From Candidatus Latescibacterota bacterium (lineage in GTDB: Bacteria > Latescibacterota > UBA2968): a stretch of DNA of 64,000 bases. A program made the position numbers and the translations under genes. The notes beneath the pieces are model-generated. The model did not search any database and had not been told where the DNA came from. It saw nothing but the letters and a program-made list of their open reading frames with translations. The DNA is taken from positions 2,880,001 to 2,944,000 of the forward strand of contig OZ240241.1 in the NCBI GenBank assembly GCA_965198115.1. The letters run 5' to 3'. Shown here piece by piece: positions 4,680 through 38,177 of the stretch (its first letter is position 1; every line of letters begins with the position of its first letter).

Positions 4680-4730
4680 GTTAGAAGTTTAAAGGGGGTT
4701 GAAGCGGAGATAAGTGTTCGGGTAGACACC

Positions 4731-4890
4731 CGAACAATAACCTGATGTTCTTTCGCCATTTATAATTACTCCTAAGTAAACTTTATTTCACCAGTTCCGT
4801 AGGCTTGGTGGTAGGAAGTTCGATTGTTTCGGACGATACGCAAAGCCCTGGGCAAGCCAGGTTATCAGGACGGGAAGGCGCCGTCCGTTT
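4731..4890. repeat. 160-bp repeat X; inverted copy at 35226-35385 and partial copies at 35526-35569, 35939-35997, 4993-5009
   Basis: Direct comparison: 2 mismatches in 160 bp against the reverse complement of 35226-35385. Confidence 0.9.
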
Positions 4891-4892
4891 CC

Positions 4893-4950
4893 AACCGCTT
4901 TGAGCGGTTCACAAGTTTTCAAGCCTCCGGCTTTGCCGGAGGTCATGACT
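4893..4950 (+). mobile_element. Isolated IS200/IS605-like end (two hairpins), no transposase
   Basis: Hairpins aaccgct-ttg-agcggtt and cctccggc-ttt-gccggagg followed by tcatgact, resembling IS200-type right ends as I recall them. Confidence 0.5.
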
Positions 4951-5031
4951 CTCCCGCAGATCGTTCTCACGAAACACCACGTAAACTTTGGGCATTTATA
5001 ATTACTCCTTTAACCGTTTACGATTCAGGAG

Positions 5032-6405
5032 GAGCTCAGGTCAATAGGTGTGTAAAAGAAATCAGGCGGCCATCTTCCCGGCTTCGACCTGCGGTTCGGT
5101 TGAGTGTTTCTGATCGTAGACTTGTTGTAGCAAGTGTGGCGCGGTGAGTTTCCTGAATCGGCTCTCTGCGACCTTGAGCGTACGCCAGATGAGAGCCGTG
5201 GCGTTCCTGACTTTCTTGAATCGCCTGGCGGCGTTTGTGCGAAGCCGAACGGAAGCAAAGGGGCTCTCGACGACGTTCGTGGTTCTCAGGTGTTTCCAGT
5301 GTTCCTTCGGGAAGTCGTAGAACGTGACCATCCGATCCCAGTCTCTTTCGAGCGTCTCCACGGCGGCAGGGAACTGTGAGCGATACCGTGCGGCAAAGCG
5401 TTTCCGGAGCTTCTCGGCCTCCTTTTTCGTGCCGGCATAGGGGATCTGGACGAGCAGTGCGCGGGCTTCAGCCTGTGCACGCTTGGCGACCTTGTCGAGC
5501 ACGTTGAGGATCTTGTGGTTCCAGCACCGTTGTTGCCGGCTCTCTGGCCAGACCTGATCAACGGCCGCCCAGATGCCCATATTCCCGTCCGCGGCGATCA
5601 GGACAGGATGTTCGAGCCCGCGATCCCGGAGATCCCGGAGCACCGTGAGCCAGGATTCTGTAGACTCTCGATAACCGGGTTCTATCGCCAGGATCTCCTT
5701 GCTGCCGTCGCTCATCGCGCCGATCACGACCAGCAGACACGCCTTCTCGCGCTCGAGCCCGGCTTTGACGTAGATGCCATCAGCCCAGGCGTAGACCAGT
5801 TCGCGATTATCCAGACGCCTTTCTTTCCAGTCCTGGAAGTCGACCTCCCACTTCCCTCGAAGACGAGCGATCGAGGTCGGCGAAAGCGGCGCGCCATCAC
5901 CGAGCAGCGCACGCAAAGACAACTCGAAGTCGCCCTGGGAGAGACCGTGGAGATAAAGGTCGGGAAGCAGATCTCCAATGGCCCTGGTTCTCCGGGCGAA
6001 CAGGGGGAGGATGCGGCTTTCAAACCGCTCTTCCAGACCACGAATCCGGGGACGCCGGACCTTGATCGTTCCGCAGCTCGTCGAGAGACGCCGGGGCTTG
6101 CCGTAGCCGTTCCTGTAGCCCCTGGAGCTATCGACCTCGGCTCGGCGCTCATACCACGACCGGCCCAAGAACGCGGTCGCCTCCTCCTCCAGAATGGACT
6201 GGAACCGGCCCTGGATCTCTTCACGGATCCAATCGTCAACCGTCTCCCACGTCGGCATGGACTTCAATGGGGCTCTATGCGTATGTTCCTTCACGGCGAT
6301 CCTCCTTCCCAACCGGGCCTCTCACCCGGTTTTGTGTGAATCAACTATCTCACGGGAAGGGTAGGGTCGCCCTTTCTCTTTTTCCACACCTTTTGATTAT
6401 AGTTC
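5032..6405 (-). mobile_element. IS256-family element B, copy 1 (1374 bp); matching TSD not adjacent
   Basis: Same ends as the copies at 36160-37533 and 60205-61578; right flank is caagcaga, left flank unrelated. Confidence 0.95.
5062..6294 (-). CDS. IS256 family transposase
   Basis: YRNGY, WADGIY, QRCWNHK, RTTNVVES motifs; GGAGG RBS before GTG. Confidence 0.95.
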   Translation of the reverse strand: MKEHTHRAPLKSMPTWETVDDWIREEIQGRFQSILEEEATAFLGRSWYERRAEVDSSRGYRNGYGKPRRLSTSCGTIKVRRPRIRGLEERFESRILPLFARRTRAIGDLLPDLYLHGLSQGDFELSLRALLGDGAPLSPTSIARLRGKWEVDFQDWKERRLDNRELVYAWADGIYVKAGLEREKACLLVVIGAMSDGSKEILAIEPGYRESTESWLTVLRDLRDRGLEHPVLIAADGNMGIWAAVDQVWPESRQQRCWNHKILNVLDKVAKRAQAEARALLVQIPYAGTKKEAEKLRKRFAARYRSQFPAAVETLERDWDRMVTFYDFPKEHWKHLRTTNVVESPFASVRLRTNAARRFKKVRNATALIWRTLKVAESRFRKLTAPHLLQQVYDQKHSTEPQVEAGKMAA

Positions 6406-7824: not shown

Positions 7825-9455
7825 GCCTGAATCATGCATGAATTTGAGTTTAGGTTGTTTTGGAGTGATGTGATCACGCACAGGATTTGTTCTCGGCTTC
7901 TTCGGATGTCCAAGGTCCCGTAAGCGGTCTCTACGAGTCGCAAGAGTCACGATTTTCGTCCGGAACAGGTGTTGTTTTGCGACGTGTACATAGCTGTCCC
8001 CGGTATAGATCGGCGTTGTTACTGCGTGTTCGTTTCGAGCCTGGTGATGATTGACACCAAGACGTTTTTGAGTGGATACGATGTTGGAAAATGGAATCGG
8101 ATTCTTCGTGCGCTTTCAATGACTCTCGCGCCGATTTTGAGGAAACGGTTCTGTATCGTGTTGACCTGAGGTTTGGTCCACGCGGTGCCCTTGAGTCCCT
8201 GTGATCGGAGTGCGTGAAGCAAGGCGTATGCAGCACTGTGTAGAAAGAGTCGGAACTGGTTGGCTTCAAACTTGTGGCACGATGTTCGATCGGAGTGAAG
8301 GAATGTTTTGTGGTCCTTGATGAAGCCTTCCGTGCGTCCCCTTGCGCAGTAGATACGATCATAGATAAAGCCGTCTCGATTACTCTGTAAATTGGTCACG
8401 CGGTATCTTGGATTTGCTTCGCCGTTTGTGACTTCAGCCTTGTGAATGATCCGGCGAGGCTGCCGGTAGGTGCCAGCCTGATATGAGAAGGATGAGAACA
8501 AGCGAATCGTCTCCTTATGCTCGCTCAGACGTAGCGCTTGGTCCATCAGGTTTTGTCCAGCCGCTTTGAGCTTGGAGTTGGCGCCCTGGCCCAGAACGTA
8601 GTAGATACCGTTGTCTTCGCAGAAATCGTGCATCTCTGGTGAGCTGAACTTTGAGTCTGCGCGAACGATGATCTCCACGTTTGGCCAAGATCCGCGTAGG
8701 TGTTCCACCAAGCGCTTGAGAATAGAAACGACCTGTTTACCGTTCGTCGGATGCCCGGGTCTCAAGATCGTCGTAATGAGCTTGCCGCTTTGGCCTTCAT
8801 AGATATGTAGCGGCATATAGCAGTGTTCATTGTAATACGCGTTGAAGAGTGAAAATTGTTGCGCACCGTGCGTTGGGTCATCCGTGTCGTCGATATCGAG
8901 AATGATGCTTGGGGGTGCCTGGTCATACGATGCGATGAACCCGTCTACAAAAGCCCGTGCGAGCCGATACAAATCCGAGCGTCGCACATCATTCTCAAGT
9001 CGTGTCATCGTTGATTGGCTCCCGAGATCAGGACCGGAAAGAGGAAGCCGATCGCAGGCAGCCTTGACGCCCGGATCGTGGCGCAAATCATCACAATCGA
9101 CGGCATCTTCATAGCCGCAAGCGATCTGAAAAACACGCTGCTTCACAAGATCCAAAAGCGTGTGATCGATATAGCTTGGGTGACGACGATCTCGCAAAGC
9201 ATCTACCATTCTGGCGATCAATCCCATCTGAGACTCAAGGGCGCGAAGCAACAGAACTCCACCGTCACTCCTGACGGCGCCACCGGCAAAATCAGCCTCA
9301 ACTACCTTGCCCGAAATGCTTGCGAATGGTAACCGGATCTGACTAGGTTCTATCACGGTAGTTCCTTCCAAGTGTTGTTTTGATGTGTCAGCCCTAATGT
9401 AGGGAAAAACAAACACTTGTACAAGGAGACTACCTTTTTTATGCATAATTCAGGC
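7825..9455 (-). mobile_element. IS1380-family element
   Basis: IRs gcctgaatcatgcat / atgcataattcaggc, flanked by TA. Confidence 0.9.
8019..9356 (-). CDS. IS1380 family transposase
   Basis: SDGGVLLL, GYEDAVD, LDIDDTDD, VRADS, YCARG.E..IK motifs. Confidence 0.93.
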   Translation of the reverse strand: MIEPSQIRLPFASISGKVVEADFAGGAVRSDGGVLLLRALESQMGLIARMVDALRDRRHPSYIDHTLLDLVKQRVFQIACGYEDAVDCDDLRHDPGVKAACDRLPLSGPDLGSQSTMTRLENDVRRSDLYRLARAFVDGFIASYDQAPPSIILDIDDTDDPTHGAQQFSLFNAYYNEHCYMPLHIYEGQSGKLITTILRPGHPTNGKQVVSILKRLVEHLRGSWPNVEIIVRADSKFSSPEMHDFCEDNGIYYVLGQGANSKLKAAGQNLMDQALRLSEHKETIRLFSSFSYQAGTYRQPRRIIHKAEVTNGEANPRYRVTNLQSNRDGFIYDRIYCARGRTEGFIKDHKTFLHSDRTSCHKFEANQFRLFLHSAAYALLHALRSQGLKGTAWTKPQVNTIQNRFLKIGARVIESARRIRFHFPTSYPLKNVLVSIITRLETNTQ

Positions 9456-9457
9456 TA

Positions 9458-11337
9458 GTGACTTTACCTACGTAGTGCTTTTGACCGAGTCCCGGGCGAG
9501 AAGGGCGATGGGTCTCGACCACGTTAGGTGGGTTGGACACCTCCCGCTCTACGCGAGACTGCGAACGAATGAGAAGCTGGTTCCTGGAACAGACAGGATA
9601 AACGGTGTATACACTGTCGAGTTTTTCGAAACTCGACATTTCGGGAGGCGGAGGCGCGATCTCGTTGCAGCGGGAGCGCATATCTTGAATCACGACAGTC
9701 GAACACACACGTCCATCATCCATCTCCAGAACCCATCTACTCGGGTCCTGAGCAGAATATCGGGAATCCACGGGGTCCAAATCGTTCGACAGCGATCCAG
9801 AAAACGATTCTGCAATAACGTGGCTACGCGGCTGATGAAGACAAAGGAGATTGTGTCACCCCTCGATCTGAGCGGAGAAGGTGAAATCATCTCGATTTGT
9901 GATTCTGGTTTGGATACGGGCGACATGAGCGACATGCATCCTGATTTCGAGGACCGTGTGATCGATATCAAGGGTTATCCAGTCAACCCATCGAATAGTC
10001 CTGAGGTTTCGAATGTGGGACATGATGATGGAGAAGATGACAGGAGCGATGGACACGGTACACACGTAGCCGGTTCGGCACTGGGTGCAGGTGTGGCGAG
10101 CATGAAAGACAAAGGCCGCCGTCGGCCGATCCGTGGTCTGGCGTACAAGGCACAGCTGGTTTTCCAGGCCGTCGAGCAGTTCGTCGAATGGAAGGATCCT
10201 GAGAATCTAGAGAAATATGGGCCCTACATGGTCTACGGGTGGCCAGACGACATGACCAAACTGCTGGAGTATGGTTTTTCTACTTGGGGAGCGAGAGCCC
10301 ATTCCTTTTCGATTGGAGGCGTCGAGCCCGGAGTCTACGACGTGGATTGTCGCAGAGTCGATAAGTTCGTCTGGGATCACAAAGAGGTGTGCATCGTGGC
10401 GGCCGTTGGGAACGACGGCCAGCAGGGGAAGAAGGGCATGATCAAAGAAAGAAGCGTGACTTCCCCGGCGTGTGCGAAGAACTGTATCGCCGTGGGTGCA
10501 AGCGAAACTCGGCGACGGCACTTCAAAAAGAAGACTTACGGTGATACCTGGGACGATTACTCGAAGGCGCCCTACAAGAACGCACAGATGGCCGATAAAC
10601 CCGATCAAGTCGCGGCTTTCAGTAGCCGTGGTCCTACCAACGACGATCGAGTCAGGCCGGATCTCGTTGCACCTGGGACATTTATTCTTTCAACACGGTC
10701 TCGCGTTCTTCCAAAGCACGAACACGGATACGGCAAATACAGAAACAAGCAGTATTTCTACCTTCACGGTACAAGCATGTCCACGCCCCTCGTGAGCGGG
10801 GCTGCCGCCGTGATGCGCGAGTACCTGAGGGAATACTGGGGTATCGATGATCCGAGTGCGGCCCTCGTAAAGGCCAGCCTGATCTATGGGGCAAAGAAGT
10901 CCCTTCGGCACGTCAAAAGGGACGAGGTGTGCGACAATCATCAGGGGTACGGCGTGATCAACCTCGATGCATCTGTCTCTGCAGTTGCTTACTACGATGT
11001 CCGAGAACGTTTGGAGACTGGGGAGTTCTATGAGTTCGAGATAAATGTTCGGTCTTCCCGCAGACCGCTGCGCATCGTGATGGCCTATACCGACTACCCT
11101 GGGGAAACACTGATCAACAATCTGAACTTGGAGTTGATCCCACCATCTGGGGATGAGACGCACTTCGGGGGCAATGGGCCCGGGCCCGACACGACAAACA
11201 ACGTGGAAGTCATCCACATCAAGAAGCCGCGCCGAGGAACGTGGACGTTGAGAGTTATGGCCGCGGAAGTAAAGAAAGGACGACAGGACTTCGCCCTCGT
11301 ATTCGGCGGACGCGCAGAGGACGTAACACCCGGCTGA
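9458..11337 (+). pseudogene. S8 subtilisin-family serine peptidase (KP-43-like), catalytic and C-terminal part; 5' end detached
   Basis: Triad CDSGLDTG, GHGTHVAGS, GTSMSTP; FSSRGPT.D.R..PD; C-terminal beta domain (NNVE). Confidence 0.9.
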
Positions 11338-18595: not shown

Positions 18596-21103
18596 CTATA
18601 TCGAACGCCCGAACGATTGAAGTGCTTCCTGGTCGTATTCAAGAGTAAGCTCGTTCAGTTCTTTTGCCGCCGCTTCGTCCGAATCAGCGACCTCGTATCT
18701 CATCGAGGCGTAGCCTTTCATTCGCTTTTGGAACATTCTCCCCAGCATCGGAACCTTGAGATCCACGTAGTCATAAATGCGATCATCCGCCTTCCCTCGA
18801 TAGGCGCGATGGAGCCTCCCGGCGTATTGGACGAGCGTACCTCTCCAGGCAATCGGCATCGCGAGGAAGAGCGTGTCCAGGCGGGGATCATCGAAGCCCT
18901 CACCGGTGAAACGTCCAGTCGAAATCACGAGCCGCTCTTCGTCGTCGGACAAATCGGCGAGTCGATCAAGAGCTTCGCGCCTCTTTTGGGTACCCATCCC
19001 GCCTTGTAGTACGACCAGGTTCGGGGTCATCCCCTCGAGTCGATCCGCGAGGAATTGCAGATGATCTCTTCTCTCAGTCAGAACCAGAGGAGATCGACCT
19101 TCCTCCAAAGCTCGGATGACGTCGTCCAGGATCATCTCATTCCGTTTCGGGTCCAGGGCAAGGCGCTGATAGATGTGTTGTATTCCCGTGCGAGTCCCAT
19201 CTACATCAATTGAGAAGGACGTCTCACGGACAAAGAGCCGATGTCGAAAAAAACCCCGTACAGCTTGATCCTTGCGATCGAAGGAATATCGGATCGGTCC
19301 AAGATAGTAGTGGAGAATCGGGTGGTGGCCGTCGCGCCGGATTGGAGTCGCCGTTAAACCCGTTAAATGCTTTGCCCTGACCTCTTTCAGAACTTTTTCA
19401 AAAGAGACAGCTGGAATATGATGACACTCGTCAACGATCACGTTGCCATACCTTCCAGCAAACTCAGACAGATCCTTCCTGCGCGCCAGACTTTGGATCA
19501 TCGCCACATCCACCAGCCCTGTCTGTTTTCGCCTCCCACCGCCAATCTGACCAATTTCCTTCACATCAAGGCCCAGAAAAACCGCAAGCTGTTCGCGCCA
19601 TTGATCCAGAAGCTGCGTTCGATGTACGAGAACTAACGTGGCTCGTTTCCGTTCCGCGATCAGGTGGATACCGACGACGGTCTTGCCCATCCCGGGCACT
19701 GCAACGAAGACTCCGATGTCAGATCCCAATATCACATCGGCAGCTCTTTTCTGAGCGGCGGTCAACTCTCCTTGAAAGGCAACATCGATCCGCTCACCTG
19801 CTGTCTGTCGATCTTCGATCCTAAGCGTAATGTCGTGAGTCGCAAGCAGCTCCTCAAGATCGAATAAACAGCCTCGGGGCAGCGCCACGGCTTCGGACAG
19901 ATCTTCAGCACAGGTGATGACTCGAGGAGTCAACGCGGTAGACAGTCGCAGAGATTGCCTTTTGTAGAACTCTGGGTTCTGGAAAGCCGCCAACCGTTTG
20001 ATCTGATTGATCAGGGAAGAGGGCAAACCCGACTTTTCTACAAGAACACCCCGATCCAGATCGGCCCGAACACTCTTGGGCAAAGGATCCTCAATCGAGA
20101 CGATCTGTGGCCCTTCTTGAGATCGCGCGGTCTTATCCCCGGGTTCATCGGACAAAGACGGGATCTGTACGCCGATAATTCGGCCTTCTTGGGATGCCAT
20201 CTCGGCCAACGCCTCAACCCGTGAACGTGGCAAACGGTCCAAGGAGGCGAGATAGCCCCATTGATCCTCGTAGGGCGCCCATCTGTTGTCGACAAACACT
20301 GTGTTCCCAGCGCGCCTCGCCTCATACTGAAGCGGCAGGGCGATCAGGTTCCCGAATCCGCCTCGCGGCATCGTATCCTGGCTGGGAAACAGACGGTCGT
20401 AGGAAGCCATCGATATCTGGTGTCTTTGCGTCATCGTCTGCGTGATCAAATAGCAGCCCATTTTTCTCGCTGACGCTGCGGATACACACTCCTCAAAGAA
20501 GAACCAGACGTGTGCCCCCTTCCCCGATCGAGATCGTTCAACCGCGGGAGTCATCCCAAGCTTGATAGAAGTCTCCAGAAAGGAGGAAACATCGTCTGCC
20601 CAGGCCTTGCCATCGAAATCAATCGCCAAAATAGCGCAGGTGTCGTCTTCCAGCAGCGGATAGACTCCAACGACGTGACGCCCCTGCAGATGGTCCTTGA
20701 TAACTTGGTCGGTCACGGGAAGGAATGCTTGATTCGGACACTCTCCGCACCTTACCCGAGGTTTATCGCAGACACCGTGCACCCATTCGTTACCGCACGC
20801 TGGGGCGTACCCAATCGATTGTTTCCGCTGGTTTCGCCAGAATTTGGGGAAGACATCCATCCGACCTCGAAAGAGCGAGCGAAAGAGGGTAATCTTCTCT
20901 TGGTTTGATCGGGGCGATGCTACTTTGTGGGGGAGGGCTTCGACAGTTGGGCCAGACAGGGAAAGCGAGGTCAACTTATCCTGTAGTTCTGCCAGACGTC
21001 CGACGAGTAAGCGTTTCTCGGCATCGATGTCCGCGAGACGGGCTTTTTCGTCACGGATCTTCTGGATCAGAGTGGCCTTGTCAAGGGAAGTCAACGGACA
21101 CAC
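18596..21103 (-). CDS. iee: AEP primase-polymerase fused to SF2 (DExH) helicase; IS-excision enhancer (IEE)/TOTE-primase homolog
   Basis: LFRGR.DV, C.NEW...C.KP...C.EC, AIDFD, ERSRSGKGAHVW, SYDRLFP.QD.MP.GGFGNLIALPLQ, AAF.NPEFY, GKT, DECHH, GLTATP.RRDG, GEGFD, QYAGRLHR. Confidence 0.85.
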   Translation of the reverse strand: MCPLTSLDKATLIQKIRDEKARLADIDAEKRLLVGRLAELQDKLTSLSLSGPTVEALPHKVASPRSNQEKITLFRSLFRGRMDVFPKFWRNQRKQSIGYAPACGNEWVHGVCDKPRVRCGECPNQAFLPVTDQVIKDHLQGRHVVGVYPLLEDDTCAILAIDFDGKAWADDVSSFLETSIKLGMTPAVERSRSGKGAHVWFFFEECVSAASARKMGCYLITQTMTQRHQISMASYDRLFPSQDTMPRGGFGNLIALPLQYEARRAGNTVFVDNRWAPYEDQWGYLASLDRLPRSRVEALAEMASQEGRIIGVQIPSLSDEPGDKTARSQEGPQIVSIEDPLPKSVRADLDRGVLVEKSGLPSSLINQIKRLAAFQNPEFYKRQSLRLSTALTPRVITCAEDLSEAVALPRGCLFDLEELLATHDITLRIEDRQTAGERIDVAFQGELTAAQKRAADVILGSDIGVFVAVPGMGKTVVGIHLIAERKRATLVLVHRTQLLDQWREQLAVFLGLDVKEIGQIGGGRRKQTGLVDVAMIQSLARRKDLSEFAGRYGNVIVDECHHIPAVSFEKVLKEVRAKHLTGLTATPIRRDGHHPILHYYLGPIRYSFDRKDQAVRGFFRHRLFVRETSFSIDVDGTRTGIQHIYQRLALDPKRNEMILDDVIRALEEGRSPLVLTERRDHLQFLADRLEGMTPNLVVLQGGMGTQKRREALDRLADLSDDEERLVISTGRFTGEGFDDPRLDTLFLAMPIAWRGTLVQYAGRLHRAYRGKADDRIYDYVDLKVPMLGRMFQKRMKGYASMRYEVADSDEAAAKELNELTLEYDQEALQSFGRSI

Positions 21104-21104
21104 C

Positions 21105-22582: not shown

Positions 22583-22701
22583 CTGTCCAGTTGAGGCGTA
22601 CCCTAGCCTGGCGTCAGGGACGGGGCGCTGAGGCGTCAGAATAGAGTTCTCATTTGGATTGATGGACACATCCCGTCCAGGGTTATAGAGTTCTTCCTGA
22701 C
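22583..22701 (+). promoter_or_regulatory. Tn21/Tn501-type resolution (res) site
   Basis: gttgaggcgtaccctagcctggcgtcag...gcgtcagaataga...ggttatagagttcttcctgaca resembles the Tn21 res as I recall it, and lies directly before a tnpR start. Confidence 0.7.
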
Positions 22702-22724
22702 AGATTGGATTCAGCAGGGACGCC

Positions 22725-22787
22725 TTGCCCGATCAGCGCATCGGCTATGTCCGGGTGAGCAGCTTCGACCAGAACCCGGAACGCCAA
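22725..22787 (+). pseudogene. tnpR: First 21 codons of a Tn3-family resolvase
   Basis: TTG-PDQRIGYVRVSSFDQNPERQ. Confidence 0.85.
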
Positions 22788-22861
22788 GTTGAGTTGTGTC
22801 CAGGTTCGAGAAGGACGCCCATCCAGGGAGGCTGGAGACGTTGAAGAAGGAGACGATCGCA

Positions 22862-23467
22862 ATGATCGGCAGCCGCGCCTTTACTGCATTGATGGTGGGA
22901 TGGCTATTGACGAACGCCGTTCAGGCAGAGCCGCGGCCCGGCGACATCGCCGGCGTATATCCGTCGGCAGGGCCGGGTGACCGTACGTTGTACGCGATAG
23001 CGCGGGTGAACCCGGGAGCCGGTCCCGCGACGACGAGGTCCGGGGAGTCGATCATTCAGGTCTTCGTCACCGGCAGGGACCGCCGCGTCGAAGGGACTGC
23101 CAGTCACTACTTTGCGGTGCCGCGGGATGTATCCACGGGCGTGCGACTCGACGCGCTCCACTCGGCACCGGGTCCCAATCACTTTATCCAAATTGACGGC
23201 CGGGAGTACGCGCTCCAACGGATTATGGTCGGGGTACGGGAGGGCCACCTGCGTCTTGAAGGGGCGGTTCTGGTACGCACCGGCTTCTTACCAATGATAA
23301 TGCGTGGACGGATCGAGCTTCGGCTGGACTCGGCCCTGAACCCCGGCGGGACCGCAGACGAGATGACGGCCAAGGCGTTGGAAGACACGACACGGGCCGA
23401 CAAAATCAGTCGTGAAGGCTATGAGAAGGCGCTACGAGACTACCAAACAAGAAGAGCGCGAGAGTGA
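22862..23467 (+). CDS. Hypothetical exported protein
   Basis: AAGGAG RBS; signal peptide MIGSRAFTALMVGWLLTNAVQA. Confidence 0.6.
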   Translation: MIGSRAFTALMVGWLLTNAVQAEPRPGDIAGVYPSAGPGDRTLYAIARVNPGAGPATTRSGESIIQVFVTGRDRRVEGTASHYFAVPRDVSTGVRLDALHSAPGPNHFIQIDGREYALQRIMVGVREGHLRLEGAVLVRTGFLPMIMRGRIELRLDSALNPGGTADEMTAKALEDTTRADKISREGYEKALRDYQTRRARE

Positions 23468-23547
23468 ATGGGCCTTAGCGTACGATTTTTCCCGTTTCGT
23501 GAGGTGACCCCACCTCAACCCCCATAACAAAGCGCCCGGACGGTGCC

Positions 23548-23874
23548 GTGATGCTGCGCATGCCCTTCGAGTTTCCCGACGGAGATCGCTTCCCTATCCA
23601 CGTTTCGGAACTCGGGTCCGGTGGATTGCGCCTTTCCGACCAGGGCCATACGCTCATGCACATCAGTTACGATCACGACATTGATTCGTTCCTGGAAGGC
23701 ACCCGTGGCCAGCTCATCGAGCGCACCATGGCCGAGACCGGCCTTGAATGGGACGGAGACGCATTCTGCGTCGATACTCCAATCGATAGGCTTCCTGATG
23801 CGATCTTTCGTTTAGGTCAAGTGTTGACCAGGGTTTACGACCTGATTGCCCTTCCAAGTGTTGTTTTGTGTTAA
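23548..23874 (+). pseudogene. DUF1828-like domain fragment
   Basis: PF.FPDGD.F.I......LRLSD.GHTLM.IS pattern; both ends appear truncated. Confidence 0.55.
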
Positions 23875-24620
23875 GGGTCAGCCGAAGGAGTCCATAGCCC
23901 CCACCTTCCGTGACTCTGGCCACCGAAGTGTTGCTGCAAGTTTCTGAATTTGCCGTAGGGTGGTTATGTCCCTCTGCGTCTTCTCAAAAGCTTCCTTCGC
24001 GTGGTGCTCGACGCTGGCAAGACTCACGCGAAGATTCCTGATGATCGGATCGAGATTGTCCTCGGTGATCTCTGACTCGGAAAGAATAGTTGACGCCGGA
24101 CACGCTCTATCCACGTGCTTCTGCATAGCCTCTCTGTCCTTGATCTTCCCGCCGTCCGAAATCGGTCCCGAGACGTAGATCCCTCTCTCACGTCGATGCG
24201 TGTAGACCCCTTTCTGGGTGCGATGTTCGTAGTGTGAGACGACGTTCGGGGTGGTTTGATTATGGGCTCTGAGCGGGCTTAACTTTGCCCTTCTGTGCGG
24301 GTTTTCGAGGACCTCGACGAGGTTCCGAACCCAGAGGACGTCAAGACCGATCCTTGAGCCCGGTCCAGACTGCGGGATACCTCGCAGATCAAGTTACCGA
24401 CCTCCGCAAGGAGCGAAGCGTCGCGAGAGCCACTACCTCATCAATTGGGCAATGTGACGCATGCTTTTCATCAGTGATGTCGTCAACAACTGCTGATACG
24501 GGGCTTCGGGAGCTTTTTCCGCATAGAGCCTCCACGGGTCATACTGACCTTGATATACCTAAATAGTACCGTAAATTTAAGAAATAAATTCACTCCTATT
24601 GAGTATAGGAATATACCTAC

Positions 24621-25424
24621 ATGAAAGAAAGAACGACGATCGGCGATCGAGTAAGGAAGGCAAGGGAGCGGTCTGGTCTTGCCTCCTCGCAGGCAGCCTT
24701 GGCCAAGAGGCTAAGAGTGACACCGAAGCAAGTCTCTGTATGGGAAAACGCCACCAACCTTGAATGGAGAACCTTGGAGCGGATTGCGAGCGCGCTGGAG
24801 ACTACGCCAGAAGACATCGTCAATGAGGGGATTACGGCACGGTTCAGGACGGAGTTCGAGGAGCTGCTGGAGAGTCGTAAACGATCGGTCACGGCGCGTT
24901 GGCTTGACGGGATTTACCCAGATCCCGAAGGGAGAAAGATAAACCTGACTGAGAACAACCTACTGATAGCTCTGGACGCCGATTTGCTGGATTGGCCCCC
25001 CGAAGAGTCAGGTGGCTATTCTGACCGTATCGCTGGCGTCACCCGCCGATATTGCAGTCAGGTTCAGAAGGCAGCATGGTCCGATGCTCGCAAAGCCGAG
25101 ATGATCGAGACAATCGTCAGCATTGGCACTAAACACTTTGCGGAAGCAAGAGAGAGAGGGATTTCGCTCGATGCCATCACAGCCCACTTGGCGGCAGACA
25201 GGAAGGAAGAGACGAAGCAGCTAAGAGGATTGGTCTCCCGGATGACAGAAGACAAGGAGATGCTGGATGTCGTCGATTGGTTATCGAGTGATAAGCGGTA
25301 CGTGAGGCTTCTGAAGACTTTGGGCAACCTACCAAAGGATCTCAACGATGCGGACCTGGGAGTGATAGCTCAGGGGCTTCGCGGCATTCTTAGGATGATC
25401 AAGCAACTGAAACGGCCCAGCTAA
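24621..25424 (+). CDS. XRE-family HTH transcriptional regulator (phage-type repressor)
   Basis: IGDRVRKARE...SQAALAKRLRVTPKQVSVWEN...TLERIASALET. Confidence 0.85.
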   Translation: MKERTTIGDRVRKARERSGLASSQAALAKRLRVTPKQVSVWENATNLEWRTLERIASALETTPEDIVNEGITARFRTEFEELLESRKRSVTARWLDGIYPDPEGRKINLTENNLLIALDADLLDWPPEESGGYSDRIAGVTRRYCSQVQKAAWSDARKAEMIETIVSIGTKHFAEARERGISLDAITAHLAADRKEETKQLRGLVSRMTEDKEMLDVVDWLSSDKRYVRLLKTLGNLPKDLNDADLGVIAQGLRGILRMIKQLKRPS

Positions 25425-25463
25425 CCGGAAAGACATGCAACGCGACATCCACAGACCGAAATC

Positions 25464-25724
25464 GTGATGCCAAATTCAAGACCAAAACTCGATGAGTACA
25501 TGAAGGAGGAAGGAAACGCCCTCCTCGACGGCGAGAGACTCTTGGCTCCCGAGCAGGTGATGGCTCGTCTTGGGATCACAAAGAGGCAGCTCAACGAACT
25601 ACATAGGGGCGAGAATCCGCGGGGTCTGTATCTGCCGGCTTACAGGCTGGGGAAGAAGACAATCCGTTACCGGCTGAAGGATGTGCTGCGGCTGGAATGG
25701 GAGGCGATGAAGGAGTGTAGCTGA
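25464..25724 (+). CDS. Excisionase-like HTH protein
   Basis: LLAPEQVMARLGIT...LPAYRLGKKTIRYRLKDV; convergent with the integrase. Confidence 0.75.
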   Translation: MMPNSRPKLDEYMKEEGNALLDGERLLAPEQVMARLGITKRQLNELHRGENPRGLYLPAYRLGKKTIRYRLKDVLRLEWEAMKECS

Positions 25725-25799
25725 CCGAATTTAAGTCAGCTTGGATTACTATAGGTCGATGGGACGGCAACACTCAACTGGCTGCCGCAAAAGCCAGCG

Positions 25800-27029
25800 T
25801 CAATACGGAAGCCTATCCATTGGATGCTGCTCGGGTTCGATGTAGTGGAGATACTGCATCGTCGTGTTTAGGCTGGCGTGGCCCATCCGCTTCTGGAGCG
25901 TTGTAGGGTCTACGCCGTTGCGGAGGGCCATCGTCGCGTATGTGTGTCTGAGAGAGTAGACGGTAATTTCTGGATCGATTTTCTCCGCACGGATCATCAG
26001 TGAAAAGGCCTTTTGCGGTGCAGCTTGGGAAAGCGGCCTCTTCCGGTAGCCCTTTCTCCTCGAATCCCCACCAGGCATCACGAACGGCCCGAGCATTCCC
26101 TCATCCTCCTGCCGTTTACATTCCTCTTGAAGATAGTCGACAAAGCTCAGCTTGATATCTAACCGACGGGCTTCGCTATCTTTGGGCACCCAAGTCTCGC
26201 CTGTTTCCTCGCAAGCGGATCTGTGGATGTCGATTATTCCACCCCTCCGATCGATTGCATCCCATCTGAGCCAGCACATTTCTTCATCCCTCAGTCCCGC
26301 GTAGAGCCCAAGTCTGACTACTGTGGGCAGGCTGCCACTTATTCTCGTCCGATAGTTCAAGGAAGCGTCTAGGATGTATTTTGCTTCTTCTTCGGTGAGG
26401 ACCCTACGCTCCTTGGACTTCCTTGGCTGGCGAATCTTAACTTGCCGTGCCGGGTTCTCAGAAAGCATTCCGAGTCTAATGGCCTGGTCGAGCAAGAGTC
26501 TGAGTTTGGTGTGGTAGTGATAAACACTCCAATCCGAGTAGTTCCTCCTGAGCTGGGCTAAATAATTTGACACATCATGCGTGGTGAGCTCCCTGAGATC
26601 TGGATGATGGGTTCCGAGCCACTCCAATACCTGCCCGGCAAGACTTATGTGGTTCTTGTAAGACTTCCTTCCTACTCCACCTTTACCCACATCTGCTGCA
26701 TAGTCCTCATAGGCTCGCAGGATTTCTTGATAGCCCGTCTTCTGGAGGGTGGCTCTTGAGTTTCTCTTTGCAGTTTCCAGATATCCTCTGAAGACGGTGC
26801 CGGCTTCTTCCTTCTTTATCCAGCCCCTCTCAATCCACTCCTGAATGTCAGCTTCTACAGCCAGGCCCGTCCGAGCTGCGGCCTCCAATCTCCCAACTTG
26901 AGTCTTGAGGGCATTGGCTTCTGCCTTGAGCTTTGCATACTTGGCCTTCTTTACTGACTTACCATTGAGCTTCAAATAATAGGACACTCGCCAGTTGTTC
27001 CTGGCGGGGAATTTATGGACGGAAGCCAT
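25800..27029 (-). CDS. Tyrosine recombinase/integrase
   Basis: AGLRDEE, PK, YSLRHTYAT, MGHAS..TT..Y catalytic residues; adjacent to tRNA 3' end. Confidence 0.95.
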   Translation of the reverse strand: MASVHKFPARNNWRVSYYLKLNGKSVKKAKYAKLKAEANALKTQVGRLEAAARTGLAVEADIQEWIERGWIKKEEAGTVFRGYLETAKRNSRATLQKTGYQEILRAYEDYAADVGKGGVGRKSYKNHISLAGQVLEWLGTHHPDLRELTTHDVSNYLAQLRRNYSDWSVYHYHTKLRLLLDQAIRLGMLSENPARQVKIRQPRKSKERRVLTEEEAKYILDASLNYRTRISGSLPTVVRLGLYAGLRDEEMCWLRWDAIDRRGGIIDIHRSACEETGETWVPKDSEARRLDIKLSFVDYLQEECKRQEDEGMLGPFVMPGGDSRRKGYRKRPLSQAAPQKAFSLMIRAEKIDPEITVYSLRHTYATMALRNGVDPTTLQKRMGHASLNTTMQYLHYIEPEQHPMDRLPY

Positions 27030-33130: not shown

Positions 33131-33410
33131 TCACTCACTGAGCAATGTATTCACTGGATCCTGCTTCGCGGCTCGAGCGGCCTGAAATCCGATTGTAAGC
33201 ACGGCGATGCCGATGCTTATGACACCGCTTAGCACGAATGGCATGGGCCCAACGGCAACACGAAAGGCGAAGTCTTCAAGCCAGCGATCCATAATCCACC
33301 ACCCCAACGGCCACGCGACCACGTTCGCGATAATCACCGGTCGCATGAATTCACCGCAGAGCATGAGAACGATGTTCGATTCCGACGCACCGATCACTTT
33401 GCGGATTCCG
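33131..33410 (-). pseudogene. MacB/FtsX-type ABC permease, C-terminal fragment
   Basis: GIRKVIGAS...IANVVAWP...WLEDFAFR...QAARAAKQDPVNTL. Confidence 0.85.
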
Positions 33411-33649
33411 GTTGTGACACGTAGCATGATCCTGAGACCGCGCTGCGAGCGTGAACGTTTCGTAGACTCAGTCTCGGCCATCAGAGAAGATTCCGGCGCC
33501 CACCCAAATCGGTTCACTGTCGTCCCTACATCCCTATAGCACATTCGTCTCATTCAGGAAACCAGAATACGGCATCCCTTGTCTATAATCGTAGTGCGTC
33601 AGAACTGATCAGAGCCACATTCATCACAGCTGACGAACACCCTATTAGA

Positions 33650-33789
33650 ATGCTCTCCAACTACTTCAAAGTCGCCTGGCGATACCTGCTACGCGACAAG
33701 GTGATCAGTTTAATCAGCGTGACGAGCCTGTCTCTGGGCATCGGATGCGCAATCCTCGTCTTCCTCGTGCTCCAGAATGAGCAGGGCAC
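33650..33789 (+). pseudogene. MacB/FtsX-type ABC permease, N-terminal fragment cut by ISL3
   Basis: MLSNYFKVAWRYLLRDK..SLISVTSLSLGIGCAILVFL. Confidence 0.85.
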
Positions 33790-35189
33790 GGGTTTCTCAA
33801 CGGTGAAACTATAGAATGACAAGGTCATAGATCGTTCCCTACGCTTGGTTGTGTGTGTAGGACAATCAAAGCGAAGGGGGTGCGACCTATGACCGGGAGC
33901 AGATTACTATCGAAACTGCTGAGATTCAAGGGGTTCCGTGTTGTCAGCTGGTGGTTTGAGGGGAGAAGCTGTTTCGTCATCGCCGTAAAGCCACATAAGA
34001 ATGGTTGTTGTTGTCCGGAGTGCGGCCGTCGAGGTAAAATCGTCCGCACAATGCCCCATCCGCGTCGGTGGCGTGACATTCCGGTGTGCGGGTGGAGGGT
34101 CTGGCTTCTCTACCATCCTCGGGAGATTCGGTGTCCTACCCACGGTCGTGTGGTCGAGGAGATTCCGTGGGCGGAGCGGTTCTCTCGGGTGACGTATCGC
34201 TTCGAGTATGCCATGCTGCGCTACTGCCAGACCATGACGCAGAAGGCGGCGTCCGAGTTACTGCGCATCTCTGCCTCGACGCTGTCGGATCTCCTTCACC
34301 GATCCATCACGCGGCTTCGTGAAGGTCATCGTATCCGAGGGCTCAAAACCATCGGGATCGACGAGATCTCCTACGCCAAGCGTCACAGGTACGCCACGCT
34401 CGTTTACGATCTGGACCGCTCCTGCGTGGTGTGGGTTGGCCGCGGCAGGGCGCGTAAAACGATCGATCGGTTTTTCACAGAGGCTCTCAGTCCCTACCAG
34501 AGATCCAAGATCGAGTGGGCCTGCTGCGACATGAGCGAAGCTTACATCGGAGCCATCCAGGAACACTGTCCGAATGCCAAGCTGGTCCTCGATCGCTTTC
34601 ACATCGTCAAGGCTCTCAATGCCGCCGTTGACGAGGTCCGTAAGGACCAGTGGCGTAAAGCTGCCCCGGATGAGCGCAAAGCCATGAAGGGCCTCCGATG
34701 GCTCCTCTACCGGCACTCAGCGACACGCTCCAGAGGGGATACTCGGACACTCAAAGCACTGGAGAAGGCGAACTACCGAATCTATAGAGCCTGGAGACTC
34801 AAGGACGAGTTCGAGCAGTTCTGGGAATACAAAGCGCCCTGGGCTGCCGAACGCTTCCTGAAATGCTGGACGACGTCCGCACTCAGAAGTCGACTTGAAC
34901 CCCTGCGAAAGTTCGTCAGGACCCTGCGACAGCACTTCTTCGGCGTCCTCGCATTCGTGAACACGCGTCTTACCAACGCCATCGCCGAAGGCCTCAACCG
35001 AATCGTCCAAATCGTCAAGAACCGAGCCAGCGGATTCCGCACACTCGACGCATTCAACGATATGATCTTCCTTACCGTCGGAGACATAAACATCCCTGAG
35101 CAGATTCCGAAGAGGTTCCGCACACTCTAACCGCGCCCCCATGCCAGGAACCACGGCACCTTCACCCACTTCATCTCGTTGAGAGATCC
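33790..35189 (+). mobile_element. ISL3-family element (no TSD)
   Basis: IRs gggtttctcaacg / cgttgagagatcc. Confidence 0.88.
33889..35130 (+). CDS. ISL3 family transposase
   Basis: CPECG Zn finger, IGIDEIS, CDMS..Y, DRFHIV, TNA.AEGLN. Confidence 0.95.
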   Translation: MTGSRLLSKLLRFKGFRVVSWWFEGRSCFVIAVKPHKNGCCCPECGRRGKIVRTMPHPRRWRDIPVCGWRVWLLYHPREIRCPTHGRVVEEIPWAERFSRVTYRFEYAMLRYCQTMTQKAASELLRISASTLSDLLHRSITRLREGHRIRGLKTIGIDEISYAKRHRYATLVYDLDRSCVVWVGRGRARKTIDRFFTEALSPYQRSKIEWACCDMSEAYIGAIQEHCPNAKLVLDRFHIVKALNAAVDEVRKDQWRKAAPDERKAMKGLRWLLYRHSATRSRGDTRTLKALEKANYRIYRAWRLKDEFEQFWEYKAPWAAERFLKCWTTSALRSRLEPLRKFVRTLRQHFFGVLAFVNTRLTNAIAEGLNRIVQIVKNRASGFRTLDAFNDMIFLTVGDINIPEQIPKRFRTL

Positions 35190-36055
35190 GGATATAGCCA
35201 AAAATAAAGAAGTAATATTTCACGAAAACGGACGGCGCCTTCCCGTCCTGATAACCTAGCTTGCCCAGGGCTTTGCGTATCGTCCGAAACAATCGAACTT
35301 CCTACCACCAAGCCTACGGAACTGGTGAAATAAAGTTTACTTAGGAGTAATTATAAATGGCGAAAGAACTTCAGGTTATTGTTCGTGAGCAGATTCCGAA
35401 GAGGTTCCGCACACTCTAACCGCGCCCCCATGCCAGGAACCACGGCACCTTCACCCACTTCATCTCGTTGAGAGATCCAGATATAGCCAAAATAAAGAAG
35501 TATTTATGAACAAACCTTGCCCGCGCCAAGCCTACGGAACTGGTGAAATAAAGTTTACTTAGGAGTAATCGGGTTCCGTGCCGACTCTTAGCCCGTCCAA
35601 GTAGTCTGCCCATTCCTGCCCCAGCTGCGTCTTATTTGTCATAAGCCACGCATATTTAGGCGCCCTCTTTATCGACGGAAAGCTTTATTCTCCCATGTTC
35701 CCCAGACAAGACAGGGGGCCGTGGAAGGGTGACGCGTCGATCTCCTGCTGAATGAGGGAGACCAATTCCTCATCGGTACCCGCTCCGACCGGGCCTCGCT
35801 TCCGGGGTTGCCGAAGATCGGTTACGGATGAACGACGAAGCTGGCTGTGCACCGTGGAACGGGGTATCTGCAACACTTTGCACACGCGTTTAAGCTGTAG
35901 CGTCTCCCCGTGGAGGGCGAAAGGGTGCCATTCCCGCGCCAAGCCTACGGAACTGGTGAAATAAAGTTTACTTAGGAGTAATTATAAATGGCGAAAGTGG
36001 ACCCCGAACCCGAACAGGAAAAATAAAGAAGTATTTATGAACAAACCTTGAGCTC
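35190..36055. repeat. Patchwork of short duplicated segments (repeat X pieces, ISL3 end, IS3 piece, IS256-B tip)
   Basis: Most pieces match other places in this window; see findings. Confidence 0.85.
35718..35924 (-). mobile_element. Internal 207-bp fragment of the IS3 element
   Basis: Reverse complement of 16771-16978 with a 1-bp deletion. Confidence 0.9.
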
Positions 36056-36159
36056 TATGCTTGTCGCACAGTCGTCTGAGCGGAGTCAACCAGGACTTTT
36101 TTACCGGCCCATCGAACTGTACCAGGTAGTGGTGCTTGACCGCTGTAGGTATCCTTTCG

Positions 36160-37533
36160 GAGTTCAGGTCAATAGGTGTGTAAAAGAAATCAGGCGGCCA
36201 TCTTCCCGGCTTCGACCTGCGGTTCGGTTGAGTGTTTCTGATCGTAGACTTGTTGTAGCAAGTGTGGCGCGGTGAGTTTCCTGAATCGGCTCTCTGCGAC
36301 CTTGAGCGTACGCCAGATGAGAGTCGTGGCGTTCCTGACTTTCTTGAATCGCCTGGCGGCGTTTGTGCGAAGCCGAACGGAAGCAAAGGGGCTCTCGACG
36401 ACGTTCGTGGTTCTCAGGTGTTTCCAGTGTTCCTTCGGGAAGTCGTAGAACGTGACCATCCGATCCCAGTCTCTTTCGAGCGTCTCCACGGCGGCAGGGA
36501 ACTGTGAGCGATACCGTGCGGCAAAGCGTTTCCGGAGCTTCTCGGCCTCCTTTTTCGTGCCGGCATAGGGGATCTGGACGAGCAGTGCGCGGGCTTCAGC
36601 CTGTGCACGCTTGGCGACCTTGTCGAGCACGTTGAGGATCTTGTGGTTCCAGCACCGTTGTTGCCGGCTCTCTGGCCAGACCTGATCAACGGCCGCCCAG
36701 ATGCCCATATTCCCGTCCGCGGCGATCAGGACAGGATGTTCGAGCCCGCGATCCCGGAGATCCCGGAGCACCGTGAGCCAGGATTCTGTAGACTCTCGAT
36801 AACCGGGTTCTATCGCCAGGATCTCCTTGCTGCCGTCGCTCATCGCGCCGATCACGACCAGCAGACACGCCTTCTCGCGCTCGAGCCCGGCTTTGACGTA
36901 GATGCCATCAGCCCAGGCGTAGACCAGTTCGCGATTATCCAGACGCCTTTCTTTCCAGTCCTGGAAGTCGACCTCCCACTTCCCTCGAAGACGAGCGATC
37001 GAGGTCGGCGAAAGCGGCGCGCCATCACCGAGCAGCGCACGCAAAGACAACTCGAAGTCGCCCTGGGAGAGACCGTGGAGATAAAGGTCGGGAAGCAGAT
37101 CTCCAATGGCCCTGGTTCTCCGGGCGAACAGGGGGAGGATGCGGCTTTCAAACCGCTCTTCCAGACCACGAACCCGGGGACGCCGGACCTTGATCGTTCC
37201 GCAGCTCGTCGAGAGACGCCGGGGCTTGCCGTAGCCGTTCCTGTAGCCCCTGGAGCTATCGACCTCGGCTCGGCGCTCATACCACGACCGGCCCAAGAAC
37301 GCGGTCGCCTCCTCCTCCAGAATGGACTGGAACCGGCCCTGGATCTCTTCACGGATCCAATCGTCAACCGTCTCCCACGTCGGCATGGACTTCAATGGGG
37401 CTCTATGCGTATGTTCCTTCACGGCGATCCTCCTTCCCAACCGGGCCTCTCACCCGGTTTTGTGTGAATCAACTATCTCACGGGAAGGGTAGGGTCGCCC
37501 TTTCTCTTTTTCCACACCTTTTGATTATAGCTC
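36160..37533 (-). mobile_element. IS256-family element B, copy 2
   Basis: 8-bp TSD tcctttcg at 36152-36159 and 37534-37541. Confidence 0.95.
36190..37422 (-). CDS. IS256 family transposase
   Basis: Near-identical to 5062-6294. Confidence 0.95.
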   Translation of the reverse strand: MKEHTHRAPLKSMPTWETVDDWIREEIQGRFQSILEEEATAFLGRSWYERRAEVDSSRGYRNGYGKPRRLSTSCGTIKVRRPRVRGLEERFESRILPLFARRTRAIGDLLPDLYLHGLSQGDFELSLRALLGDGAPLSPTSIARLRGKWEVDFQDWKERRLDNRELVYAWADGIYVKAGLEREKACLLVVIGAMSDGSKEILAIEPGYRESTESWLTVLRDLRDRGLEHPVLIAADGNMGIWAAVDQVWPESRQQRCWNHKILNVLDKVAKRAQAEARALLVQIPYAGTKKEAEKLRKRFAARYRSQFPAAVETLERDWDRMVTFYDFPKEHWKHLRTTNVVESPFASVRLRTNAARRFKKVRNATTLIWRTLKVAESRFRKLTAPHLLQQVYDQKHSTEPQVEAGKMAA

Positions 37534-38177
37534 TCCTTTCGTCTTCATTGTCGTAGGCGGGATGCCAGTGCGTGTCACCAGTAGCGTCGAGTCGTGGGCG
37601 ATTGGTGTCGATCGTACGATGCCCAACTCTGATCTTGTAGAGGTCGGTGATGTCTTCGGTCGGGTAGAGGCGCCCAATCCGTCGAACTTCATCCCGCGTC
37701 GTCTTCATCAACACGAACGCGTCGTACTCGATCTCCGCCGCGTGGAAATCTGCGTAAAGGTCTTCTCGCTCTTCCTCCGTACAGAACACCTTGAGGGTTC
37801 GCGTACGTCTGGGCACAATGCCTCCTCGGGGGCGGGGCACTCGTGAACATAACCGCGCGTTTTGCCAACCAATCTAACCCCATTGACTCGAAACGTATAG
37901 TGCGGGCCGGGGGCGATTTCCAATTCTGACGGCGAAGCTCGTCATCGGCGACGCATCGCCTTTTGGTTGTGCCCGAGGATACCAAGTCGCTGAATTCGTA
38001 AAAGCTCGCCCGTCACCTGGATACTGGACGATCAAGCAGCGTGAGATCGCGAAAGTGTCCGTTGCCACACCACCGTCTTTCAACGGAACGAAGGTCCGTC
38101 CTCACGAGCAAAGAAAGGGGACCCTCCAAGCATCTTTTTTCGGCAGAGGATGCGTGAAAGACTGCCGATAGAAAAGT

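What the first reader, a model, noticed from the sequence alone, without database searches (positions are those of the whole stretch)
35097..36063. ~900-bp patchwork built from 10-210 bp copies of IS sequence and of the opposite breakpoint
Order of pieces: (1) ISL3 end plus flank, 35097-35215; (2) inverted X, 35226-35385 = 4731-4890; (3) ISL3 end plus flank again, 35386-~35503; (4) X piece, 35526-35569; (5) ~150 bp unassigned, whose minus strand reads QEWADYLDGL like a P4-type integrase tail; (6) inverted IS3 piece, 35718-35924 = 16771-16978; (7) X piece, 35939-35997; (8) aaaaataaagaagtatttatgaacaaaccttg, 36019-36050, repeating ~35490-35519; (9) IS256-B tip gagctc. The novel junction cccgcgcc|aagcctacgg itself occurs twice, so newly joined DNA was re-copied. 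Copies carry point errors. This pattern fits serial template switching (FoSTeS/MMBIR-like), which is rarely described in bacteria.
Basis: partly seen in the sequence, partly recalled or inferred. Interest (0 to 1): 0.8.

Follow-up and report, generated by a model that had tools for sequence, protein, structure and literature searches.

The report
Multi-round DNA patchwork beside transposon ends
This ~860-base stretch is a patchwork of short copies of distant genes, transposon pieces and a local repeat at one end of a 31-kb inversion; it was likely built in several rounds of sloppy DNA copying at transposon ends, possibly by an IS-excision-enhancer polymerase whose gene lies 14 kb away.

Summary
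The patchwork is in the assembly as described, with corrections. It is the right breakpoint of a ~31-kb inversion that split an S8 protease gene. Before the flip it was likely contiguous with window 4683-5031. 'X' is a genome-specific AT-rich repeat (11 loci) that itself carries 24- and 21-bp exact copies from distant intact genes. The second ISL3 end is a different ISL3 subtype, not a local re-copy. Contigs of other sponge-type metagenome samples hold the older junctions and simpler alleles, so the block grew in several episodes. The youngest part (363-bp insert between 50-bp repeats; the 35385/86 join) has no independent support. Similar gene-snippet scars occur at about two dozen other sites in this IS-overloaded genome. 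The window encodes the genome's only AEP-TOTE protein, 45% identical to E. coli IS-excision enhancer (IEE), a microhomology-using polymerase; RT, Ku, Cas1 and Piwi were not found. Best reading: serial templated copying tied to copy-out IS ends, IEE the likeliest enzyme (untested). Against: only 1 of 8 junctions here shows microhomology. Template switching is known in E. coli; an IEE link to multi-snippet insertions was not found in my searches.

The parts
33789..35199 (+). ISL3 copy 1 (transposase 33853-35130); left tip about 10 bp short; right end sits on the A-rich target in X motif A2
35200..35231 (+). Tail of X motif A2 plus a 6-nt filler (35226-35231) relative to the older A2 allele seen in run X7
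35232..35255 (-). 24-bp exact copy from inside an intact single-copy gene at genome 5352473-5352496 (GrpB-like by my recall, not scanned)
35256..35276 (+). 21-bp copy from inside an intact gene at genome 632122-632142 (enolase-superfamily by my recall); 21/21 in two other X copies, 20/21 here; abuts the 24-mer with no overlap
35277..35385 (+). X core, motif B' (RBS-like plus ATG) and first part of motif C; inverted copy of window 4731-4840
35386..35488 (+). Last 103 bp of a second ISL3, of a subtype with 11 copies; blunt join to X at 35385/86
35489..35519 (+). Tail of X motif A1 (target of the second ISL3)
35520..35569 (+). 50-bp direct repeat, copy 1 (6-nt filler plus 44 bp of X core)
35570..35684 (-). 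115 bp with no donor found in this genome; 35594-35619 identical to an integrase gene tail of another bacterium
35685..35715 (-). 31-bp copy of the leader (RBS region) of replication-initiator-like gene remnants; very deep in the metagenome runs
35718..35924 (-). 207-bp internal piece of the IS3 transposase region, with a private 1-nt deletion
35925..35932 (+). 8-nt filler, no local template found in 33789-36200
35933..35997 (+). 50-bp direct repeat, copy 2, running on into X motif B'
35998..36051 (+). X motif A1; the B'|A1 join also exists at genome 7767518-7767595
36051..36056 (.). GAGCTC, duplicated 6-bp tip of the IS256 at 5032-6405: right inversion breakpoint, 2-nt overlap with A1
36057..36158 (-). 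Native fragment of a split S8 protease gene (about residues 89-122 of homologues)
36159..37533 (-). IS256-family element inserted in the protease gene, 8-bp target duplication
37535..37816 (-). 5' part of the split S8 protease gene
4683..5031 (-). Other half of the X cluster (spacer, B, 64-bp IS200-like end, snippets, B', C): left inversion breakpoint
5032..6405 (-). IS256-family element whose tip marks the inversion; its target repeat matches the one at 36057-36064 at 7 of 8 bases
9454..11337 (+). 3' part of the split S8 protease gene, now on the opposite strand
18596..21103 (-). IS-excision-enhancer (IEE) homologue, AEP primase-polymerase plus SF2 helicase; candidate enzyme

Best explanation
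The block is a patchwork on an inversion breakpoint that was likely built in several rounds, in each of which a DNA end freed at a copy-out transposon tip would have copied short stretches from unrelated templates before rejoining, with the nearby IEE-type polymerase as the likeliest enzyme. Shown: the piece map, intact donors, the split protease and the duplicated IS256 tip, two independent ISL3 insertions, simpler alleles in other samples, and an intact IEE homologue. Inferred order: (1) an AT-rich A-B-C repeat unit gains 24- and 21-bp gene copies and is duplicated and shuffled; (2) an IS256 tip is joined to the A1/spacer boundary, inverting ~31 kb; (3) ISL3 inserts into A1 and into A2; (4) most of one ISL3 is lost or bypassed, leaving 103 bp; (5) a 363-bp multi-piece insert is added, with synthesis resuming 50 bp back and repeating the junction. 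The enzyme, the template-switch chemistry and the exact order are inferred. The result is most likely a non-functional scar.
For: Donors of the 24-, 21- and 35-bp pieces are intact genes, so the pieces were copied, not moved. In 300 shuffles of the 165-bp X stretch, 1 reached an exact genome match of 21 or more and none reached 24. The inversion junction is host flank plus 6 bases of IS256 tip, then a switch with a 2-nt overlap: this is the shape of the flank-primed strand switch proposed for IEE during copy-out (bioRxiv 2023.06.07.543989, parts 1-4 of 5 read), which lists IS3, IS256 and ISL3 among circle-forming families. Window 18596-21103 is 45% identical over 760 aa to E. coli IEE with D/D, H, D and Walker-A K kept; it is the only PF22548 match in this genome and none was found in same-genus G001. 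IEE is an error-prone, slippage-prone polymerase (PMC9943667, passages); the fillers include a GG run extension and an ACGG repeat. Genome-wide, 11 of 23 abutting-copy junctions with 0-6 nt overlap have 2 or more nt (16.5% expected, p about 5e-4). 28 non-genic sites carry 23-263 bp copies of distant single-copy genes.
Against: In this block only 1 of 8 non-transposon junctions has microhomology; IEE needed 4 bp or more in vitro and gave no product at 2 (bioRxiv review, part 3). E. coli IEE is known for excision and local deletions, not for copying from megabases away. The control is weak: before a post-hoc repeat filter, G026 (no PF22548 match) had 6 gene-to-intergenic copies and 6 tight junctions per 2.8 Mb against 9/10/12 and 5/7/18 in three equal slices of this genome; only after the filter is it 0 against 3/4/5, and G026 also has about ten times less high-copy repeat. 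A search for IS-excision scars was uninformative. Only 2 differences are private, against about 0.2 expected from IS copies (Poisson p about 0.02 by my arithmetic, confounded by age). No read or contig spans the youngest part.
Confidence: 0.55

Rival explanations
1. Transposon bookkeeping only: IS-flanked or flank-carrying segments were duplicated into an AT-rich insertion hot spot, then trimmed by repeated adjacent deletion and IS excision until only 20-200 bp remnants were left. No snippet-scale template switching is needed.
For: About 13% of the genome is in 8-copy-or-more repeats, with about 240 ISL3 and 140 IS256B copies. X is hit by ISL3, two IS630 types and an IS200-like element. The 21-bp donor lies 37 bp from an IS256. 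Insertion-deletion-excision cycles and composite duplications are shown experimentally (PMC8860574, PMC12065110, passages).
Against: The 24- and 35-bp donors lie 3.4 and 2.3 kb from the nearest high-copy repeat, and donors overall are not enriched near IS (2 of 28 within 300 bp, 5.9% expected). Each snippet would need several selected-free steps. A 50-bp repeat around a multi-piece insert is not a target duplication of these IS (7-9 bp for IS256B).
Confidence: 0.2
2. Capture of free short DNA fragments (SPDIR-like patches or end-joining at IS-made breaks), including fragments from other cells or lost elements.
For: Blunt or filler junctions dominate here (7 of 8). 115 bp has no donor in this genome, and part of it matches an integrase tail from elsewhere. 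SPDIR uses intragenomic or external single strands (bioRxiv 2024.07.02.601687, passages).
Against: SPDIR needs microhomology at both ends and is very rare when RecJ is present; two recJ genes pass the family cut-off. No Ku was found. Ligation does not explain re-copying of the 50-bp junction.
Confidence: 0.14
3. The youngest part (35570-35932 and the 35385/86 join) is an assembly or library chimera laid over a real, simpler X allele.
For: 0 of 4 runs laid cover 35561-35654, and no listed piece spans the block or these joins (the piece table was cut).
Against: The older joins are bridged in other samples (X5, X7). The genome is one contig whose IS copies differ privately at only 0.29 per kb. 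The runs are short-read contigs of possibly different strains, and the tool warns that a hole proves nothing.
Confidence: 0.07
4. X is a dedicated acquisition locus (spacer-, cassette- or cDNA-like) that stores gene fragments, perhaps to make antisense RNA.
For: 6 of 7 gene-derived pieces at X loci lie antisense on the strand where motif B reads RBS-ATG. Motif C has a 9-bp hairpin (z about -3).
Against: No RVT_1, group II RT, Cas1 or Piwi match, and no integron integrase over cut-off. No repeat-spacer periodicity. The strand bias is not significant (two-sided 0.125, my arithmetic). X motifs were found in 0 of 52 other genomes of the order, and no Rfam match. Snippet scars also occur away from X.
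Confidence: 0.04

Closest known systems
MMBIR / FoSTeS long-distance template switching (E. coli stress-induced amplification; PMC3161906, passages seen)
   Same: Several novel junctions in one rearrangement, copied inserts with intact donors, small duplications at inversion ends.
   Different: There junctions had 3-30 bp microhomology and inserts came from nearby; here most joins are blunt or have fillers, donors are megabases away today, and the block grew in several episodes at IS ends.
IS-excision enhancer (IEE, E. coli ECs_1305) strand-switch deletions (PMC9943667 passages; bioRxiv 2023.06.07.543989 parts 1-4)
   Same: Full-length homologue in the window; breakpoints at circle-forming IS families; flank plus a few IS-tip bases then a switch; slippage-like fillers.
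   Different: Described products are excisions and local deletions; multi-donor insertions and a 31-kb inversion were not among the products in what I read.
SPDIR microindels (Acinetobacter baylyi; bioRxiv 2024.07.02.601687, passages)
   Same: Short patches identical to distant chromosomal or foreign DNA.
   Different: Single patches anchored by microhomology at both ends; here chains of patches with duplications, and RecJ is present.
Insertion-deletion-excision (IDE) cycles (PMC8860574, passages)
   Same: IS plus IEE bring unrelated sequences together and leave novel joins.
   Different: IDE removes intervening DNA from one locus; here donors remain intact elsewhere.
Polymerase-theta templated insertions of eukaryotes (recalled; not tested)
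   Same: Chains of short templated inserts and fillers at a break.
   Different: No Pol-theta family link was tested; the candidate here is an AEP-helicase.

Membership tests
MMBIR/FoSTeS complex rearrangement | Inserts are copies; donors remain intact | tested here: met
MMBIR/FoSTeS complex rearrangement | Microhomology (2-15 bp) at most junctions | tested here: not met
   1 of 8 in this block; enriched genome-wide, 11 of 23
MMBIR/FoSTeS complex rearrangement | All junctions arise in one event | tested here: not met
   intermediate alleles in runs X4-X7; only the 363-bp insert may be one event
MMBIR/FoSTeS complex rearrangement | Raised mutation rate in copied tracts | tested here: inconclusive
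   2 private differences in about 715 bp against 0.29 per kb
IEE protein family | N-terminal AEP domain plus C-terminal SF2 helicase, about 790 aa, full-length similarity to ECs_1305 | tested here: met
   45% identity over 760 aa, E=0
IEE protein family | Catalytic D142/D144, H178, D216 and K451 kept | tested here: met
   aligned to D162/D164, H198, D236, K474 (residue numbers)
IEE protein family | Polymerase and end-joining activity; raises IS excision | not testable with these tools
   genomic proxy was uninformative
IEE-type rearrangement scar | Breakpoint at the tip of a circle-forming IS | tested here: met
   IS256 tip at 36051-36056 and ISL3 ends
IEE-type rearrangement scar | Depends on an iee gene | tested here: inconclusive
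   one control genome, confounded by IS load
SPDIR | Microhomology anchors at both ends of one patch | tested here: not met
   24|21 join is blunt; the A2 side has a filler
CRISPR / RT / integron acquisition locus | Cas1, reverse transcriptase or IntI in the genome | tested here: not met
Discrete mobile element | Block recurs intact elsewhere | tested here: not met
   only the self hit is full length; 0 of 40 relatives

The most novel reading that the evidence does not exclude
In a natural, IS-overloaded symbiont an IEE-family primase-polymerase-helicase acts like a bacterial polymerase theta: it diverts transposon copy-out intermediates onto distant genes and foreign DNA and writes chains of 20-260 bp templated inserts at dozens of sites, of which this block is one of the densest records.
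Probability: 0.3. Interest if true: 0.75.

Novelty: new variant of a known kind. Interest (0 to 1): 0.45.

Why it matters
If IEE writes these scars, its role extends from removing IS elements to copying gene fragments across the genome, which gives a named, assayable enzyme for templated insertions in bacteria and a route to new chimeric sequence during the IS-burst stage of symbiont genomes. The signature (abutting copies of single-copy genes near IS tips) can be counted in any closed genome. If IEE is not involved, the block is a dense but ordinary rearrangement scar with no function of its own.

Tried and rejected
X motif C pattern: 0 matches in genome contigs and metagenome contigs; motif B pattern only in this genome, 1 of 53. 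The 115-bp orphan piece: no match in viral contigs, plasmids, phages or metagenome contigs; one 22-nt pattern hit in genome contigs, about 0.07 expected by chance by my arithmetic, and conserved integrase codons raise that, so L189 shows the kind of donor, not the donor. No sigma-70-like promoter in 35150-36200. No Rfam match at E up to 1 in 5 loci. RT, Ku, Cas1, Piwi not found; IntI not over cut-off. RepA_C (PF04796) hits only genome 8425233; the 31-bp piece is tied to that family only by a shared N-terminal motif in the remnants. blastn of the IEE gene against E. coli genomes found nothing; the protein comparison did. The IS-excision-scar scan mostly returned empty paralogous sites. A first idea that 36052-36157 was a captured snippet was wrong: it is native gene. 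Strand co-orientation of neighbouring snippets held in 4 of 5 clusters, too few to use. The control covers 2.8 of 4.08 Mb of G026 only. Earlier scan notes for this genome concern an unrelated peptide cluster. Supplements of the papers were not opened; those of the IEE papers may list junction sequences that bear on the novelty claim.

Full report
Setting. The window lies in a single-contig 8.43-Mb genome (59% GC) with 13% of its bases in 21-mers of 8 or more copies: about 240 ISL3, 140 IS256B and many IS630, IS3, IS1380 and IS200-like copies. Of 8 public runs listed for the stretch, one is labelled sponge metagenome, with a small share that I did not lay; the habitat is therefore only a hint.

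Observation. The block as a whole matches only itself and 0 of 40 relatives. Four details change. ISL3 ends at 35199 and the 'flank' is X. The second ISL3 end belongs to an 11-copy subtype (225 copies have the common allele), so it records a second insertion. The adjacent IS256 begins at 36159/60. Most 'errors' are shared alleles.

What X is. X is an AT-rich family found at 11 loci of this genome and, by a motif-B pattern, in 0 of 52 other genomes of the order. It has three motifs: A, B (RBS-like plus ATG) and C (9-bp hairpin, z about -3). Older copies run A-B or A-B-C (genome 7829871, 1344610; contigs of run X7). The version in the mosaic carries, right after A2, a 24-bp exact copy from inside a gene at 5352473 and a 21-bp copy from a gene at 632122, abutting with no overlap; a third locus carries a 35-bp copy (34/35) from a gene at 7352252. 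All three donor genes are intact open frames. In 300 shuffles of this 165-bp stretch, 1 gave an exact genome match of 21 or more and none gave 24. So X is itself an older patchwork.

The inversion. Full-length homologues of the S8 protease (about 760 aa) align in three parts: residues 1-88 to 37816-37553 (minus), 94-122 to 36137-36051 (minus) and 126 onward to 9460-11310 (plus) (5 of 5 homologues tested). The IS256 at 5032-6405 is followed by an 8-bp target repeat that matches the 8 bases beside GAGCTC at 36057-36064 at 7 of 8 positions. Hence that IS256 had inserted in the gene, and a ~31-kb inversion then joined its tip to the A1/spacer boundary of X, duplicating 6 bp of tip with a 2-nt overlap. 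The unbroken A1-spacer-B join survives in contigs of X6 and X7. Before the flip the mosaic and 4683-5031 were likely one cluster (inference).

Independent data. laid short-read contigs of 5 runs (X4 and X6 are one sample and X4 may be the source; X5 is another sample of that study; X7 and X8 are other studies). With the rule of 31 letters on both sides: X5 bridges 35231/32, 35255/56 and 35997/98; X7 bridges 35231/32 only; X4 bridges 35520/21 with the 6-nt filler. The 36051/52 join is held by X4 (30 letters on the short side) and X5 (18), short of the rule. One X5 contig joins 35200-35307 to 35939-36069, skipping 631 bp: a simpler allele. No run covers 35561-35654, and no listed piece crosses 35385/86 (the table was cut). 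The older layers are therefore real and the block grew stepwise; the youngest layer is unverified.

The youngest layer. 35570-35932 (363 bp) sits between two identical 50-bp repeats that include the novel 6-nt filler. It holds 115 bp with no donor found in this genome, 26 bp of which are identical to an integrase gene tail in L189; 31 bp from the leader of replication-initiator-like remnants; a 2-nt G extension; 207 bp of IS3 with a private deletion; and an 8-nt filler. Copying out to several templates and resuming 50 bp upstream explains this shape in one event (inference).

Junctions. Of 8 joins that are not plain IS ends, 3 are blunt, 4 have 2-8 nt fillers and 1 has a 2-nt overlap. That is not the classical MMBIR pattern of 3-30 bp reported in E. 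coli (PMC3161906, passages). Genome-wide, of 54 distinct abutting-copy junctions that passed a repeat filter, 20 had gaps of 1-11 nt and 11 had overlaps of 7-15 nt and were set aside; of the other 23, 11 had overlaps of 2 or more against 16.5% expected (p about 5e-4).

Not unique in this genome. 28 non-genic sites (26 after merging three copies of one snippet) carry 23-263 bp copies of distant single-copy genes; a few are probably conserved paralogue motifs. Clear multi-piece cases lie at genome 998940, 3938199, 4160510 and 856795. Acceptors lie within 300 bp of a high-copy repeat in 11 of 28 cases against 19.7% expected; donors do not (2 of 28). The control was 2.8 of 4.08 Mb of G026 (same order, no PF22548 match): raw counts were similar (6 against 9, 10, 12; tight junctions 6 against 5, 7, 18), its hits looked like palindromic repeats, and after a filter chosen afterwards the counts were 0 against 3, 4, 5. 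This cannot separate IEE from IS load.

Candidate enzyme. No RVT_1, group II RT, Ku, Cas1 or Piwi was found, no integron integrase passed its cut-off, and two recJ genes did. Window 18596-21103 encodes the genome's only PF22548 protein (14 of 53 genomes of the order have a match, 3 of them at this strength). It is 45% identical over 760 aa to E. coli IEE with all named catalytic residues kept. IEE is an error-prone AEP polymerase with slippage and microhomology end-joining of 4 bp or more (PMC9943667, passages), needs an active transposase, and is proposed to let the flank-primed strand switch template during copy-out (bioRxiv 2023.06.07.543989, parts 1-4 of 5). The inversion junction has the predicted anatomy. 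That IEE made these scars is inferred only.

Novelty. Template switching, SPDIR (bioRxiv 2024.07.02.601687, passages), IDE cycles (PMC8860574, passages) and complex IS-driven rearrangements (PMC12065110, passages) are all described in bacteria; RT-based end-joining was seen as a search listing only. Searches returned no paper whose listing links IEE to multi-donor templated insertions in a natural genome; the library lacks most subscription papers. Verdict: a real, multi-episode rearrangement scar, a new variant of a known kind, made more interesting by its recurrence across the genome and by a named candidate enzyme. Interest 0.45.

Noticed in passing
window 18596-27029: Integrated island with a tyrosine integrase (25800-27029), an HTH regulator, an ORF with an NCBIfam SepA-family hit (21547-22176) and the IEE homologue, echoing the integrase-linked setting of iee in E. 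coli SpLE1.
   Followed up: partly
window 4952-5011 (minus); L029, L030; genome 120740: X motif B reads as RBS plus the same start, M[SP]K[VI]YVVFRE, in four diverged copies, each cut short; the original gene or element is unidentified.
   Followed up: partly
window 35232-35924; L028: 6 of 7 gene-derived pieces at X loci are antisense on the + strand, and neighbouring snippets are co-oriented in 4 of 5 clusters, including two donors 5 kb apart on opposite strands (genome 3938199); a transcription-linked template is possible but not significant.
   Followed up: partly
genome C1 998400-999250, 3938199-3938266, 4160503-4160631, 856641-857250: Other multi-piece patchworks made of copies from distant single-copy genes, several with blunt joins.
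   Followed up: partly
window 5032-9456: Three different IS inserted within about 25 bp of the same protease gene; two IS256 types reused the same 8-bp target.
   Followed up: yes
genome C1 7767518-7767762: A1 head joined directly to a 168-bp flank that elsewhere (7707811-7707978) abuts an ISL3: a candidate clean ISL3 excision scar.
   Followed up: partly
window 33131-33788: ABC-permease gene remnants on both strands beside the truncated left tip of ISL3, suggesting another imprecise IS-end rearrangement.
   Followed up: no
window 35682-35717: This short leader has depth of thousands in all four runs laid, with many different flanks, so it belongs to an element common in that community.
   Followed up: partly
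genome-wide: Many intergenic clusters of short palindromic repeats, and 75 Y1 transposase matches.
   Followed up: no
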